From the IMG/VR virus record IMGVR_UViG_2690316343_000005: 7,007 nucleotides of DNA. The stretch is one strand, 5' to 3'. Source of the DNA: a virus. Its lineage: Duplodnaviria > Heunggongvirae > Uroviricota > Caudoviricetes. A model generated the notes under the pieces. It did no database searches. It worked only from the letters and a program-made list of their open reading frames with translations, and was not told the origin of the DNA. Of the stretch, positions 1,949-6,292 are shown piece by piece. Position 1 is the first letter of the stretch. Each line of letters begins with the position of its first letter. The translations under genes and the position numbers were made by a program.

Positions 1949-2230
1949 TTATCCAGTGACGGTAGTCGAGGCTAAGGGCTTTTTTAACCTCGCATCCGCG
2001 CCTGCGGTAACACTGAATGAGCCATTCGGCCTGTTCTTCAGTGCATGGGGGATGCTGGTACCAATCAGATTTAAATGCGTGAGAGCGCCGCCCGTGCCTG
2101 CTGGCAAAGACGGCTGAATTATCAGAATTGTGTAGTCTGGAAGGCAGTGGCTGACAATAGCGCCATTCTCAACGCGCACAGTATAGAGGCCATCTTCACT
2201 AAAAATTTCACGTAATTCTTCGATTTTCAT
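1949..2230 (-). CDS. Small hypothetical protein, copy 1 (MKIEELREIFSEDGLYTVRVENGAIVSHC...); shares first 29 codons with 2757..3044
   Basis: ATG at 2230..2228 preceded by GGAAGG 9 nt upstream. N-terminal 29 codons lie inside the 252-bp direct repeat; the C-terminal ~64 aa are unique. Confidence 0.4.
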   Translation of the reverse strand: MKIEELREIFSEDGLYTVRVENGAIVSHCLPDYTILIIQPSLPAGTGGALTHLNLIGTSIPHALKNRPNGSFSVTAGADARLKKPLASTTVTG

Positions 2231-2400
2231 CAACAGAATCCTTCCAGATAAATAGCACTCCCCTGTTCGGGGTCCATCCCTCTTCTCCCTGCGCGCTACT
2301 TAAGTATTTTTGATTCTATTCCGGCACCATCTAAAACTTCAAACGCGTTGAAAATAAAAACAAAAACCCGCCGAAACGCTGAGAGATCACAGCGATGGGC
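2149..2400. repeat. 252-bp direct repeat, copy 1 (hok-type terminator hairpin + promoter-like region + 5' end of small ORF); truncated by gap
   Basis: Aligns without indels to 2962..3213. Flanks are near-identical (gctgacaat...cttaagt and cccgccgaaacgctgagagatcacagcgatgggc); the central ~60 bp diverges. Confidence 0.8.
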
Positions 2401-2411
2401 NNNNNNNNNNN
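2401..2411. other. Assembly gap (11 N)
   Basis: Run of N in the sequence; it cuts a terminator hairpin on one side and an ORF on the other. Confidence 0.95.
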
Positions 2412-2718
2412 ATTGCTCTGCGGCTTCGCTCAGAGCTGGCGTATGTTCCCGGCCTACTGATTCACACAGGTAATCAACGAAACCGGACACCAGTTTTCGT
2501 TCGCGAGGCGTGATCGCCCCACCGACCGGAGTCCAGTAATCGAAACCCAGTTGCAGGAGTTTGAAAAAACGCTTGTGGAATGCGTAGTTACACACACGCT
2601 TAAAGTCTGCGTGTATCCACTCACCTATTTTGATTTGATGCAGAAAATCGCAACTCTCCGGCGTCGCCGGGAGAAGTAATCCGGAAGAGGTTTGTTTGAC
2701 CAGTTGTATATGTGCCAT
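2412..2718 (-). CDS. Hypothetical protein, partial (C-terminus lost in gap): MAHIQLVKQTSSGLLLPATPESCDFLHQIKIGEWIHADFKRVCNYAFHKRFFKLL...
   Basis: ATG at 2718..2716 with GGAG 7 nt upstream. Open frame continues to the N-run at 2411. The ORF-track TTG extension to 2760 has no RBS. No family recognised. Confidence 0.5.
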
Positions 2719-2756
2719 CGGCTTTCTCCGGTGGCACGGTGTTACACAGCAGGAGT

Positions 2757-3044
2757 TCAATCCTGCTCAAGATTGTAGATGAGTTTATTCTTCAGCAAAA
2801 GCAGAAAACCAGCCTTAAAACCAATCTCTTTCAAAACCCGTAATGATGTGACAAATTCGTCCTCACGCAAAATAAAACCGTCCGTCAGAAGTCCATTACA
2901 AAAATAAAATAACACAGCACCGCTCTTCCTTTGTTGAGATTGCAAACATCTAATGCGGCAATGGCTGACAATCGCTCCATTCTCAACGCGCACAGCATAG
3001 AGGCCATTTTCACTAAAAATTTCACGCAATTCTTCGATTTTCAT
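2757..3044 (-). CDS. Small hypothetical protein, copy 2 (MKIEELREIFSENGLYAVRVENGAIVSHC...), divergent C-terminus
   Basis: 95-aa ORF beginning inside the second 252-bp repeat copy, with the same RBS context as copy 1. Sits just downstream of the hok terminator and a promoter-like TTGATT-N16-TAGAAT. Confidence 0.4.
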   Translation of the reverse strand: MKIEELREIFSENGLYAVRVENGAIVSHCRIRCLQSQQRKSGAVLFYFCNGLLTDGFILREDEFVTSLRVLKEIGFKAGFLLLLKNKLIYNLEQD

Positions 3045-3213
3045 CTTCAGAATCCTTCCAGATAAATAGCTCTCCCCTGTTCGGGGTCCATCCCTCTTCT
3101 CCCTGCGCGCTACTTAAGTGAGTCGATTCTATCTGCGAAGGTGCGCGAATCAAATTCACCGGAAATAAACAACAAAAAACCCGCCGAAACGCTGAGAGAT
3201 CACAGCGATGGGC
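2962..3213. repeat. 252-bp direct repeat, copy 2
   Basis: See copy 1; identical length with scattered substitutions. Confidence 0.8.
3126..3153 (-). promoter_or_regulatory. Putative sigma70 promoter for the small ORF (minus strand TTGATT-N16-TAGAAT)
   Basis: Minus-strand -35 TTGATT (plus 3148..3153) and -10 TAGAAT (plus 3126..3131), 16-nt spacer, immediately downstream of the hok terminator. Read by eye only. Confidence 0.3.
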
Positions 3214-3216
3214 GGG
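3165..3216 (-). terminator. Rho-independent terminator of the hok transcript
   Basis: Minus-strand CCCGCC-(25 nt with inner CGCTG/CAGCG stem)-GGCGGG followed by TTTTTTGTTGTT. The same hairpin recurs, truncated, at 2367..2400. Confidence 0.6.
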
Positions 3217-3220
3217 TTAA

Positions 3221-3285
3221 GTGCGGGTGCGTTGAGGATGCCTGACACATCAGAGGTGGGCGGGGATGGGATCAGCTCCCCGCCC
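3221..3285 (-). promoter_or_regulatory. hok mRNA 3' UTR structure: 8-bp GC stem-loop (3258..3285) plus fbi-like element (3221..3237) complementary to the 5' leader
   Basis: GGGCGGGG-12 nt-CCCCGCCC lies 9 nt after the hok stop. Plus-strand 3221..3237 gtgcgggtgcgttgagg is the reverse complement, with one bulge, of 3792..3807 cctcaagcacccgcag. Confidence 0.5.
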
Positions 3286-3293
3286 GGTCACTC

Positions 3294-3633
3294 TTACTTC
3301 CTGGATTCGTAGTCTACGAAGACAGCGACCTCCGTCTGGCCGGTTCGGATTCGTACCTCACAGAGGTCTTTCCTCGTTACCAGTGCCGTCACTATGACGG
3401 TNNNNNNNNNNNNNNNNNNNNNNNNNNNNNNNNNNNNNNNNNNNNNNNNNNNNNNNNNNNNNNNNNNNNNNNNNNNNNNNNNNNNNNNNNNNNNNNNNNN
3501 NNNNNNNNNNNNNCTCCGTCTGGCCGGTTCGAATTCGTACCTCGCAGAGGTCTTTCCTCGTTACCAGTGCCGTCACTATGACGGTTAAACAGATGACGAT
3601 CAGGGCGATTAACATCGCCTTTTGCTGCTTCAT
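3294..3633 (-). CDS. hok: Hok-family type I toxin (51 aa), split in this assembly by the N-gap and a 72-bp duplicated overlap
   Basis: ATG at 3633..3631 with AGGAG 9 nt upstream. Reads MKQQKAMLIALIVICLTVIVTALVTRKDLCEVRIRTGQTE (3514..3633), then gap, then ...EVAVFVDYESRK with stop at 3296..3294. Removing 112 N and the 72-bp duplicate gives exactly 156 nt. Near-identical to E. coli HokD/RelF as recalled. Confidence 0.85.
3402..3513. other. Assembly gap (112 N) flanked by a 72-bp near-identical overlap (3330..3401 vs 3514..3585)
   Basis: The flanks differ at two positions (G/A, A/G), both synonymous in hok. Confidence 0.95.
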
Positions 3634-3839
3634 AGCCTGCTTCTCCTTGCCTTTCGGCATGTAAGAGGCTAACCTACATGTGCAAAGCATGAAATTGGCC
3701 TCAGATTAATGTTAAGCGTCTTGCCGGACGCGTAATGTTAACTGGGGCTTTTCTCTATCTGCCTTTTGGTGTTCATGCCTGAAGCAGATAGCCTCAAGCA
3801 CCCGCAGTCATTCTACTTACCTCGCCAATATGAAATCAA
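3634..3839 (-). promoter_or_regulatory. hok promoter and long 5' leader (tac-like element; expected mok/sok region)
   Basis: Minus-strand -35 TTGATT (plus 3834..3839), 18-nt spacer, -10 TAGAAT (plus 3810..3815). The leader begins with GCGGGTGCTTGAGG, complementary to the 3' UTR element. The ~170-nt leader fits hok/sok-type loci. A sok promoter could not be pinpointed. Confidence 0.4.
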
Positions 3840-3860
3840 TCAGAAAGGTGCCCCATAAAA

Positions 3861-4547
3861 TCACTCCTTCTCTTCTTTACCGTAGTGGAGTTGACCAATT
3901 TTGATAAGAGGGCGTCCCTGAGATTTGCGGTGTAGATTGGTATCGCGCAGAGAATACACACAGCCACAATATTCCTGCTGATAGAATTTTTCGCGCTTGC
4001 TGATTTCAATCATACGGGACGAGCCGCCCTGCTTGCGCCAGTTATAATCCCAGTACACCATGCCCGGATAATGCGCGACGGCTCGCCGCCCACAGTCGTT
4101 AACCTGCTGCATATTTTTCCAGCGTGAAATGCCCAGTGAACTGCTGATCACACTGAAACCATTTTCAGCGGCGTACAGCGCTGTCCGCTCAAAACGCATG
4201 TCAAAACACATGGTGCAACGGATCCCTCGTTCGGGCTCCCATTCCATTCCTTTGGCTCGTTCAAACCAGTTGTCTGTGTCGTAATCAGCATCAATAAACG
4301 GCACGCCGTGTTGTTCAGCAAAGCGAATATTCTCATCCTTACGAATTAAATACTCTTTCTGAGGATGAATGTTCGGGTTGTAGAAAAAGATGGTGTAGTC
4401 GATTCCCGAGGCCTGAAGCGCCTCCATCACCTCACCGGAACATGGAGCACAGCAAGAGTGCAGTAGTAGTTTGTTTGCCCCGTTTGGGAGCTCCAATTTG
4501 GGCCGTTTGAAATCAGCAACTGTCATAAATATGTTTATTGGGGTCAT
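3861..4547 (-). CDS. queH: QueH-like epoxyqueuosine reductase homolog (DUF208 family, Fe-S enzyme)
   Basis: 228-aa ORF with [15 protein letters not shown] near the N-terminus plus conserved [19 protein letters not shown] and QEYCGCVYS motifs typical of DUF208/QueH. An alternative ATG lies at 4526; neither start has a clear RBS. Confidence 0.8.
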
Positions 4548-5545: not shown

Positions 5546-6292
5546 CTACTTAACAACCCTCGAATGGCTAACATTCGGACGCCAGCTCTCCCAGTTAAAA
5601 TTCACCCAGCGCCCGCCGTTCATGACCATGCGATCCATCACCCGCTCGCCGAGCAATGTTTTCATCACCTCATAGTTCAGGTTTGTCAGCATCCCCACGC
5701 TGCGCATCGACGCTGTCCGGCGATCAACAATCTGGTGCAGCACCACCTGCTCGTTTTTCGTCTCGCGCTGAATGCCAATTTCATCAAGAACCAGCAGATC
5801 CACTTCGCACAGCTCCCGCAAAAATTTTTCGCCTGACTGCCCGTCGTCATAGCTGGCGTGCAGGGCGCTCATAACATCAGCCACGGTAACCACAATCACT
5901 GTCTGACCGTCTTTCAGCAGGCGATTCCCGATAGCTGCCGCTAAGTGATTCTTCCCGGTACCAGGTTTTCCGCTGAACGCAAAATTTGTACACCCGGTCA
6001 TCAGTTCATCGGCGATGGATTTCGCCTGGCTTAACGCGTATCGCTGGCCGTCGTTCTGCACCTGGTAATTCGCAAACGAGCATTTACGGTGCAACGGCTG
6101 GATGCCTGAGCGATTCAGAATTTTTTCCACCCGCAACTGGCGATTCAGGCGGTTGATCTCCTCGCTACGTTTCTGGCCTTCAGCAAGTTGCCACTCGCGC
6201 CACTCCGCTACCGTTCTGAATGGGGCGGTTACATGTGGCGGGGTCAGTCGGCGGATGCGTTCCAGAACGCCGCCTGTCGCAATATTTTTCAT
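5546..6292 (-). CDS. DnaC-like replicative helicase loader (IstB-like AAA+ ATPase)
   Basis: 248 aa with Walker A FSGKPGTGKNHLAAAIGN and Walker B DLLVLDEIG. Collinear high similarity to E. coli DnaC as recalled (NRSGIQPLH, LGERVMDRM). Confidence 0.9.
   Translation of the reverse strand: MKNIATGGVLERIRRLTPPHVTAPFRTVAEWREWQLAEGQKRSEEINRLNRQLRVEKILNRSGIQPLHRKCSFANYQVQNDGQRYALSQAKSIADELMTGCTNFAFSGKPGTGKNHLAAAIGNRLLKDGQTVIVVTVADVMSALHASYDDGQSGEKFLRELCEVDLLVLDEIGIQRETKNEQVVLHQIVDRRTASMRSVGMLTNLNYEVMKTLLGERVMDRMVMNGGRWVNFNWESWRPNVSHSRVVK

What the first reader, a model, noticed from the sequence alone, without database searches (positions are those of the whole stretch)
3165..3839. Complete hok-type type I toxin locus with 5'/3' long-range complementarity
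Besides the Hok ORF, the minus-strand transcript shows the expected architecture: a promoter (TTGATT-N18-TAGAAT), a ~170-nt leader, a GC-rich stem-loop right after the stop, and a terminator. A 3' element (plus 3221..3237) is complementary, with one bulge, to the extreme 5' leader (plus 3792..3807), which matches the fbi/tac fold-back that keeps full-length hok mRNA inert. The antisense Sok RNA and any mok frame could not be located, partly because the gap interrupts the locus.
Basis: partly seen in the sequence, partly recalled or inferred. Interest (0 to 1): 0.5.

Follow-up and report, generated by a model that had tools for sequence, protein, structure and literature searches.

The report
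Ordinary prophage hok/mok/sok toxin-antitoxin locus
This is a standard hok/sok-type RNA-controlled toxin-antitoxin locus of a lambda-like prophage of E. coli, nearly the same as the already studied hokW-sokW, and it looks interrupted only because two overlapping assembly pieces were joined with a run of Ns.

Summary
On the minus strand there is a Hok ORF (Pfam HOK_GEF, 81 bits). There is a TTGATT-N18-TAGAAT promoter-like site, a 170-nt leader, a GC-rich stem-loop after the stop and a terminator hairpin. The first 12 nt (3803-3792) are complementary to 3237-3225 with one bulged C.

The N run at 3402-3513 is an assembly artefact. The 72 nt on each side are the same sequence, and two complete E. 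coli genomes (99.8% identical) carry one copy, 184 nt fewer.

In the repaired 447-nt transcript the 5'-3' helix is part of the minimum-energy fold (pair probabilities 0.97 or higher). It beats all but 17 of 3000 shuffles, and 14 relatives keep it, with one compensatory change.

Sok lies at about 3682-3752 on the plus strand, with promoter hexamers TTGCCT and TAACCT.

The locus is 91% identical to hokW/mokW/sokW of phages 933W and VT2-Sakai (Sp5), an experimentally shown type I toxin-antitoxin system. Related sequence is found in 4731 of 5426 complete E. coli genomes.

Interest is low.

The parts
3810..3839 (-). hok promoter-like site: -35 TTGATT (3839-3834), 18-nt spacer, -10 TAGAAT (3815-3810)
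   Evidence: Consensus scan, 9 of 12 matches. The -10 hexamer is conserved in relatives, while the -35 region differs because of a 10-nt indel. The transcription start was not measured.
3174..3803 (-). hok mRNA, 447 nt once the 184-nt artefact (3402-3585) is removed
   Evidence: The 5' end is inferred from the -10 spacing and from position 1 of the Rfam match. The 3' end is inferred from the terminator. Minimum free energy is -189.6 kcal/mol, z = -7.8 against 100 dinucleotide shuffles.
3792..3803 (-). tac element (GGGUGCUUGAGG), the 5' end of the mRNA
   Evidence: It pairs with fbi at P of 0.97 or higher. It is invariant in the hokW-type clade. In R1-like plasmid loci U4 is replaced by C, with a matching A-to-G change in fbi.
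3775..3785 (-). partner of tac in the early (metastable) hairpin
   Evidence: In folds of the first 113 or 170 nt, and of 3'-shortened transcripts, nt 3-13 pair with nt 19-29. The same kind of element is described for R1 hok (PMC9841398).
3742..3750 (-). ucb / anti-Shine-Dalgarno (AAGCCCCAG). It pairs with the mok SD in the full-length fold and can pair with tac in the Rfam consensus fold.
   Evidence: Searches show the pairs 56-62 with 100-106. In one search this is helix 5, 98.8% of cells paired and 2 pairs with compensatory change. The Rfam consensus structure shows the alternative pairing with tac.
3682..3752 (+). Sok antisense RNA (predicted, about 71 nt): single-stranded 5' tail, long hairpin, GGGGCUUUU tail
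   Evidence: The position corresponds to sokW as annotated in 933W and VT2-Sakai and to K-12 sokC, which overlaps the mok start by 9 nt. The fold is -30.4 kcal/mol, z = -4.4. Expression was not measured here.
3647..3675 (+). Sok promoter (predicted): -35 TTGCCT (3647-3652), 17-nt spacer, -10 TAACCT (3670-3675)
   Evidence: Both hexamers are identical to those of 933W/Sp5, where sokW is expressed from its own promoter and -10 mutations abolish protection (PMC8621323). TTGC and the TA...T positions are invariant or nearly so in 14 loci. The site is too weak for the simple consensus scan.
3294..3702 (-). mok: SD GAGG (3702-3699), ATG 3690, 70 codons, in frame with hok and sharing its stop (window coordinates span the artefact)
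   Evidence: It is 67/70 identical to MokW of 933W and 72% identical to K-12 MokC. mokW/hokW and mokC/hokC are annotated with the same 57-nt offset and a shared stop.
3514..3633 (-). hok coding sequence, 5' part (codons 1-40), with SD AAGGAG at 3648-3643
   Evidence: Pfam HOK_GEF, E = 4e-23.
3294..3401 (-). hok coding sequence, 3' part (codons 17-51 plus stop). Codons 17-40 repeat those of the 5' part.
   Evidence: The joined 51-aa product is identical to the protein annotated HokD (WP_014532198.1) in FDAARGOS_943.
3402..3585 (.). assembly artefact: 112 N plus a second copy of the 72 nt 3330-3401
   Evidence: Repeat D2. The contig ends map to overlapping positions 4131-4202 of L001. Complete genomes are 184 nt shorter here.
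3258..3285 (-). GC-rich stem-loop 11 nt after the stop (9 bp, 10-nt loop)
   Evidence: Minimum-energy fold. Relatives keep a hairpin here with compensating changes, for example GGCGAGGG/CCCTCGCC in HannyBb. Its role as the protective 3' end of the processed mRNA is inferred from R1 (PMC9841398).
3225..3237 (-). fbi element (CCUCAA-C-GCACCC), complementary to tac, with C3231 bulged
   Evidence: The only variable base in the clade is the bulged one (C or U).
3174..3218 (-). intrinsic terminator: 8-bp outer stem, inner 5-bp hairpin, T6 run
   Evidence: Minimum-energy fold. Relatives have a simple ACCCGC-TTCG-GCGGGTTTTT hairpin; this locus has an insertion of about 23 nt in the loop.

Best explanation
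The region is a hok/mok/sok type I toxin-antitoxin locus of the hokW/hokD subgroup. It sits in the early-right (nin-like) region of a lambdoid E. coli prophage, between a QueH gene and a small ORF.

Shown by sequence:

- The minus strand encodes a 447-nt mRNA for a 51-aa Hok membrane toxin.
- The mRNA's 5' end (tac) base-pairs with a 3' element (fbi).
- An upstream box (ucb) pairs with the Shine-Dalgarno sequence of mok. The mok frame starts 57 nt upstream of hok and is in frame with it.

Inferred from the R1 and hokW-sokW work:

- The closed full-length mRNA is neither translated nor bound by antisense RNA.
- Slow 3' trimming back to the GC-rich stem-loop removes fbi and frees tac to pair with ucb. 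This exposes the mok start region.
- That region is then either translated, which gives Hok and membrane damage, or bound by the roughly 71-nt unstable Sok RNA made from the opposite strand (3682-3752), after which RNase III cuts the duplex.
- When Sok supply stops, Hok is made. This could happen on loss of the prophage, or on prophage induction as shown for Sp5.

The apparent interruption of the gene is an assembly artefact.
For: - Pfam HOK_GEF, 81 bits.
- Rfam RF01794 matched full length on the hok-sense strand, 117 bits against a threshold of 59.
- tac/fbi pairs have P of 0.97 or higher in the repaired transcript. The duplex is -21.5 kcal/mol, reached by 17 of 3000 shuffles, and is the best of all 13-mers tried.
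- In 14 loci the tac/fbi helix is paired in 92% of cells with one U:A-to-C:G compensatory pair. The ucb/SD helix is paired in 98.8% of cells with two compensatory pairs. The whole structure is 83% paired against about 40% when the partners are slid.
- DNA identity to hokW/mokW/sokW of 933W and VT2-Sakai is 91%. Mok-Hok is 67/70 identical to MokW.
- The sokW promoter hexamers are identical here.
- hokW-sokW was shown experimentally to be a toxin/antitoxin pair that partly depends on RNase III and Hfq (PMC8621323).
Against: - No expression data exist for this locus. The starts of both RNAs are inferred.
- The Sok -10 hexamer (TAACCT) is weak and was not picked up by the consensus scan.
- Folds of 3'-shortened transcripts did not switch to the open tac/ucb form. 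They kept ucb on the mok SD, with tac in the local hairpin. The activation step therefore rests on analogy with R1.
- The two contig ends differ at 2 of 72 overlapping bases, and a second hok 3' end lies at 2351-2400. The joined locus could therefore be a blend of two paralogous copies.
- From my own recollection of Pedersen and Gerdes 1999, chromosomal hok loci were reported not to mediate post-segregational killing (also stated in the preprint 10.1101/2025.08.07.668861).
Confidence: 0.9

Rival explanations
1. The locus in this genome is really disrupted. Under this view the N run hides real sequence, such as a 184-nt tandem duplication or an inserted element inside hok, so the toxin gene is broken and only the regulatory RNA parts remain.
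For: The window as given has no intact hok ORF. The 72-nt copies on the two sides of the gap differ at 2 positions. Chromosomal hok loci of K-12 are often inactivated, for example by IS186 next to hokC.
Against: The two contig ends map to overlapping coordinates of a complete genome that is 99.3-99.8% identical. Joining them reproduces that genome exactly over 581 nt. A period of 184 nt, equal to 112 N plus 72 nt, is what a scaffolder produces when it fails to merge overlapping ends. A second odd N run (11 nt) also abuts a repeat.
Confidence: 0.06
2. The locus is intact in sequence but is a silent relic. Under this view it is like the K-12 chromosomal hok loci or hokD/relF: the toxin is never released, and the conserved RNA features reflect recent descent rather than function.
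For: Relatives within the clade are 82-91% identical, so conservation of tac and fbi within it says little. Chromosomal hok loci were reported not to kill after rifampicin (preprint 10.1101/2025.08.07.668861).
Against: All regulatory parts are present and mutually consistent. Compensatory changes link this clade to R1-like plasmid loci. The 91%-identical hokW-sokW is active and affects phage release (PMC8621323). In the clade the only variable base within fbi is the bulged one.
Confidence: 0.04

Closest known systems
hokW/mokW/sokW of Stx2 phages 933W and VT2-Sakai (Sp5)
   Same: DNA identity is 91% from just upstream of the mRNA start to fbi. Mok-Hok is 67/70 identical, and within it Hok is 50/51. 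The tac and fbi elements are identical, the 57-nt in-frame mok is the same, the Sok promoter hexamers are the same, and the leader hairpin carries the same extra 16 nt.
   Different: - Position in the phage differs. Here the locus lies between QueH and a small ORF plus DUF1367 in the nin-like region. In 933W it lies near the genome end, next to a YgiW/YdeI-like gene.
- The sequence upstream of the -10 hexamer is unrelated.
- The sequence after fbi, including the terminator, is unrelated.
- The first few nucleotides of Sok differ (CTTTGC here, CTGAAC in 933W, in hok sense).
hokC (gef)/mokC/sokC of the E. coli K-12 chromosome
   Same: Mok is in frame with Hok, with the same 57-nt offset and a shared stop. 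Sok overlaps the mok start by about 9 nt. Protein identity is 72%. The Rfam leader match has a similar score.
   Different: The K-12 copy has IS186 directly downstream, and the DNA is more distant. This locus is prophage-borne and has an intact 3' end.
hok/mok/sok (parB) of plasmid R1 and R1-like IncF plasmid loci
   Same: The architecture is the same: tac, ucb, mok SD, Sok promoter overlapping the hok SD, 3' stem-loop and fbi. The structure aligns, with compensatory changes.
   Different: About 44% protein identity is reported for HokW against R1 Hok (PMC8621323). In R1-like loci mok is in a different frame from hok; this rests on my own recollection of the R1 sequence, and I checked it here only for the Rac442 and P1-like relatives, which carry one extra nucleotide. 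tac is GGCGCUUGAGG rather than GGGUGCUUGAGG.
hokD (relF) of the K-12 Qin prophage
   Same: This is the name NCBI's pipeline gives this CDS. The toxin sequences are very close (my own recollection of the K-12 HokD sequence).
   Different: K-12 hokD follows relBE and lacks the leader, mok and sok (established knowledge, Pedersen and Gerdes 1999, not re-tested on K-12). A plasmid relB-relE-hok locus fetched here gave no RF01794 match. The present locus has the full regulatory set, so it works like hokW rather than like K-12 hokD.

Membership tests
[quoted passage not shown] | Small hydrophobic toxin of the Hok/Gef family | tested here: met
   Pfam PF01848 HOK_GEF, 81.1 bits (cutoff 22), profile positions 1-42 of 42. 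The NCBIfam Hok subfamily model scores 55 bits, below its strict cutoff of 73.
[quoted passage not shown] | Conserved structured hok mRNA leader | tested here: met
   Rfam RF01794, 117 bits (threshold 59), model positions 1-157 of 157, window 3803-3628 minus. The model is in hok-sense orientation, as shown on K-12 hokC/sokC.
[quoted passage not shown] | Long-range tac/fbi pairing of the mRNA 5' end with the 3' UTR | tested here: met
   12 bp plus one bulge, P of 0.97 or higher. Reached by 17 of 3000 shuffles. 92% of cells paired over 14 loci, with one compensatory pair.
[quoted passage not shown] | mok reading frame upstream of and overlapping hok, with its SD sequestered by ucb | tested here: met
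   ATG 3690 with GAGG 8 nt upstream. SD paired with GCCCCAG. Helix paired in 98.8% of cells with 2 compensatory pairs. The frame is in phase with hok, as in the annotated mokW and mokC.
[quoted passage not shown] | Alternative partners of tac: an early hairpin, and ucb in the processed mRNA | tested here: inconclusive
   Both pairings are possible. The early hairpin appears in folds of nascent RNA. The tac/ucb pairing appears in the 60-nt fold and in the Rfam consensus. However, minimum-energy folds of 3'-shortened mRNA did not adopt the open form.
[quoted passage not shown] | Antisense Sok RNA gene with its own promoter and terminator, opposite the mok start | tested here: met
   Sequence evidence only. 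The position and both promoter hexamers equal those of the annotated and functional sokW. The candidate has a hairpin plus U-rich tail, z = -4.4. The promoter falls below the consensus-scan threshold.
[quoted passage not shown] | Sok is transcribed and unstable, hok mRNA is stable and trimmed at its 3' end, and the duplex is cut by RNase III | not testable with these tools
   This needs northern blots or RNA-seq and half-life measurements. Partial dependence on RNase III and Hfq has been shown for hokW-sokW (PMC8621323).
[quoted passage not shown] | Hok expression arrests growth and Sok counteracts it | not testable with these tools
   Shown for HokW, which differs from this Hok by one residue.
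K-12-type hokD (relF): hok without regulators, downstream of relBE | Absence of the leader, mok and sok, with relBE upstream | tested here: not met
   The full leader, mok and Sok are present. The upstream gene is QueH, not relE. The pipeline name 'HokD' therefore reflects toxin similarity only.

The most novel reading that the evidence does not exclude
In this subgroup the mok frame is in phase with hok. Any ribosome that starts at the mok ATG therefore makes a 70-aa Hok with a 19-residue basic N-terminal extension (MLCTCRLASYMPKGKEKQA-) rather than a separate Mok peptide.

Close relatives (Rac442 and P1-like plasmids) differ by a single nucleotide that restores the classical out-of-phase mok. 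The subgroup may therefore toggle between 'coupled translation' and 'long and short toxin isoforms'. That would be a regulatory difference nobody seems to have tested.

The in-phase arrangement itself is already annotated for mokW and mokC.
Probability: 0.15. Interest if true: 0.35.

Novelty: already known. Interest (0 to 1): 0.1.

Why it matters
It matters little beyond correct annotation. The value of the check is practical:

- It shows that the apparent break in the toxin gene comes from scaffolding.
- It places mok and Sok, which genome pipelines leave unannotated. RefSeq lists only 'hokD' here.
- It shows that the pipeline name HokD hides a fully regulated hokW-type system.

Loci of this kind are of interest for prophage stability and for lysis after induction, because hokW-sokW raises Sp5 phage release about twofold (PMC8621323). 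Related sequence is present in most E. coli genomes (4731 of 5426).

Tried and rejected
1. Searching the genome-contig collection for the exact 39-nt variant on the right side of the gap found nothing. The source record and its own N runs could not be inspected.
2. The simple terminator scan found nothing in 3100-3900.
3. Folding 3'-shortened transcripts to reproduce the open, translatable form did not show the switch. Thermodynamic folding alone cannot settle that step.
4. I rejected this because the 3' side varies in relatives (GCA, GCG, GTA, TTT) while the 5' side does not.
5. I considered that the Rfam 'sok' match on the minus strand is Sok itself. I rejected this because on K-12 the same model matches the strand opposite to the annotated sokC.
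6. The weak Rfam match to snoRNA sR55 at 1424-1485 (23.9 bits, threshold 35) was dismissed as chance.
7. I looked for any complete genome containing the join across the first gap (2401-2411). None of 5426 has it.
8. A literature search for discussion of the in-phase mokC frame gave nothing useful.

Full report
**What the window is.** The window is part of a lambdoid prophage of E. coli. All of its genes run on the minus strand:

- a DnaC-like loader (5546-6292);
- a DUF977 protein;
- QueH (3861-4547);
- the hok locus;
- a small ORF (2757-3044);
- the first half of a DUF1367 gene (2412-2760).

Beyond an 11-N run come another small ORF, a DUF968/HNH protein (815-1873) and RusA (434-814).

**The gap.** There are two N runs, at 2401-2411 and 3402-3513. 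The second lies inside hok.

- The 72 nt to its left (3330-3401) and right (3514-3585) are the same sequence apart from two synonymous differences.
- Two complete genomes (FDAARGOS_943 and FDAARGOS_944) match 2700-4000 at 99.8%, but in 1117 rather than 1301 bases. That is 184 fewer, equal to 112 N plus 72 nt.
- The pieces on the two sides map to overlapping coordinates 3213-4202 and 4131-7595 of that genome.
- Joining them with the left copy of the overlap reproduces the complete genome exactly over 581 nt.

The gap is therefore two overlapping contig ends that a scaffolder did not merge.

**Checking the observation.**

- The consensus scan independently lists TTGATT-18-TAGAAT at 3839-3810 on the minus strand.
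- G3803, 7 nt after the -10 hexamer, is also the first position of a full-length match to Rfam RF01794 (117 bits, threshold 59).
- From there to the hok ATG (3633) is 170 nt.
- The ORF encodes 51 aa with a complete Pfam HOK_GEF match. The protein is identical to the one annotated HokD in the complete genome.
- In the minimum-energy fold of the 447-nt transcript (-189.6 kcal/mol, z = -7.8), nt 1-12 (3803-3792) pair with 3237-3225. C3231 is bulged, and pair probabilities are 0.97-1.00.
- The fold also contains the 9-bp GC-rich hairpin 11 nt after the stop (3285-3258) and a terminator hairpin (3218-3178) followed by T6.
- The tac/fbi duplex (-21.5 kcal/mol) is matched by 17 of 3000 dinucleotide shuffles of the GC-rich 3' UTR. 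It is the best of all 13-mers of the leader and coding region against that UTR.

**Relatives.** The repaired locus matches 110 phage records and many plasmids. It is 91% identical to the hokW/mokW/sokW locus annotated in phages 933W and VT2-Sakai.

Sequence related to the 1.3-kb query around the locus (window 2700-4000) occurs in 4731 of 5426 complete E. coli genomes, with a median of two places per genome.

I aligned 14 loci: ten of the hokW type from phages, P1-like plasmids and chromosomes, and four R1-like or other plasmid loci. Each had a full RF01794 match.

- Within the hokW type, tac and fbi are invariant except for the bulged base (C or U). The sequence just after fbi diverges completely in some relatives.
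- In the R1-like loci, tac is GGCGCUUGAGG and fbi is CUGAAGCGCC. This is a U:A-to-C:G exchange at the fourth pair.
- Counted over the whole predicted structure, 83% of cells pair, against about 40% when the partners are slid by 1-3 columns.
- 25 pairs show changes on both sides. The helix between ucb and the mok Shine-Dalgarno is paired in 98.8% of cells, with two compensatory pairs.

*mok.* An ATG at 3690, with GAGG 8 nt upstream, opens a frame that runs into hok without a stop. The offset is 57 nt, and the product is a 70-aa Hok with 19 extra N-terminal residues.

- This is exactly how mokW is annotated in 933W and VT2-Sakai, and how mokC is annotated in K-12: shared stop, 57-nt offset.
- Protein identity is 67/70 to MokW and 72% to MokC.
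- Some relatives (Rac442 and P1-like plasmids) have one extra nucleotide and hence the classical out-of-phase mok.

*Sok.* The sokW feature of 933W corresponds to window 3682-3752 on the plus strand.

- Upstream lie TTGCCT (3647-3652), a 17-nt spacer and TAACCT (3670-3675). Both hexamers are identical to those of 933W.
- The TTGC and TA...T positions are invariant or nearly so across the 14 loci.
- The RNA folds into a single-stranded 5' tail, a long hairpin and a GGGGCUUUU tail (-30.4 kcal/mol, z = -4.4).
- It overlaps the mok start by 9 nt, as sokC does in K-12.
- The Rfam family called 'sok' is modelled on the hok-sense strand. In K-12 it matches the strand opposite to annotated sokC. The match here therefore identifies the leader, not Sok itself.

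**Mechanism.** The sequence shows every element of the R1 paradigm as summarised in PMC9841398:

- tac with three possible partners: a local hairpin at 3785-3775, ucb at 3750-3742 and fbi at 3237-3225;
- ucb covering the mok SD;
- a Sok promoter overlapping the hok SD;
- a 3' hairpin that could protect the processed mRNA.

By inference, the full-length RNA is closed and inert. Trimming at the 3' end removes fbi. The RNA then refolds, and either Sok binds and RNase III cuts the duplex, or mok and hok are translated.

I could not reproduce the refolding by energy minimisation of shortened RNAs, so that step rests on analogy. For hokW-sokW the following have been shown experimentally (PMC8621323):

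- toxicity of HokW;
- protection by sokW expressed from its own promoter;
- partial dependence on RNase III and Hfq;
- a roughly twofold contribution to Sp5 phage release after mitomycin C.

[quoted passage not shown] Within the family it belongs with hokW.

It differs from hokW in three ways:

- its place in the phage genome;
- the sequence upstream of the -10 hexamer, where a 10-nt difference from its closest relatives puts a different hexamer at -35;
- a terminator with an extra inner hairpin.

NCBI's pipeline names the toxin HokD. K-12 hokD lacks the regulatory RNA parts, whereas this locus has them. Nothing here is new in kind.

**Limits.**

- There are no expression data.
- Both RNA starts are inferred.
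- The two contig ends differ at 2 of 72 bases, and the genome has at least one more hok module. The repaired locus could therefore mix two near-identical copies.

Noticed in passing
window 2143-2400 (compare 2957-3213): This is a second, paralogous copy (87-94% identical) of the module 'start of small ORF MKIEELREIFSE..., promoter-like region, hok terminator'. It ends inside the hok terminator exactly at the 11-N run, so the genome carries at least two hok modules.
   Followed up: partly
window 2401-2411 and flanks: The join across the first N run puts half a DUF1367 gene (profile positions 1-101 of 198) next to a hok terminator. None of 5426 complete E. coli genomes has this arrangement, so the scaffold join is doubtful. 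Positions 1-2400 probably belong to another prophage.
   Followed up: partly
window 3126-3153, minus strand: A second TTGATT-16-TAGAAT promoter-like site lies directly after the hok terminator and upstream of the small ORF 2757-3044. TAGAATC is conserved in relatives.
   Followed up: no
window 3305-3312, minus strand (Tyr47 codon UAC at 3309-3311): The Tyr47 codon of hok sits in CUACGAA, which I recall is the sequence of the tRNA-Arg(ACG) anticodon loop (not checked here). UACGAA is invariant in all 14 aligned hok loci. It corresponds to the TadA A-to-I Tyr-to-Cys recoding site described for several hok mRNAs (preprint 10.1101/2025.08.07.668861). Editing was not tested here.
   Followed up: no
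window 3628-3803; L020 402-554: Rfam RF01794, named 'sok antitoxin', is modelled in hok-sense orientation. It spans the whole leader from the 5' end to the hok AUG. In K-12 it matches the strand opposite to annotated sokC.
   Followed up: yes
window 3174-3218 and 3816-3833: Compared with its closest relatives, this locus has an insertion of about 23 nt that forms an inner hairpin in the terminator loop. It also has a 10-nt deletion between the upstream TTGATT and the -10 hexamer. The deletion replaces the relatives' candidate -35 hexamer (TTGGCG at 17 nt) with TTGATT at 18 nt.
   Followed up: partly
window 3643-3690; loci L004, L009, L010: The phase of mok relative to hok flips between close relatives through a single-nucleotide indel next to a small covarying hairpin (UGCC-GAAA-GGCA versus GACC-AAAA-GGUC). 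It is in phase here and in 933W, HannyBb, Tritos, PhiR12_3, PPompW, SCU115 and K-12 mokC. It is out of phase in Rac442 and the P1-like plasmids.
   Followed up: partly
window 3861-4547, minus strand: An epoxyqueuosine reductase QueH homologue (Pfam QueH, 220 bits) is encoded in the prophage early region directly upstream of hok.
   Followed up: no
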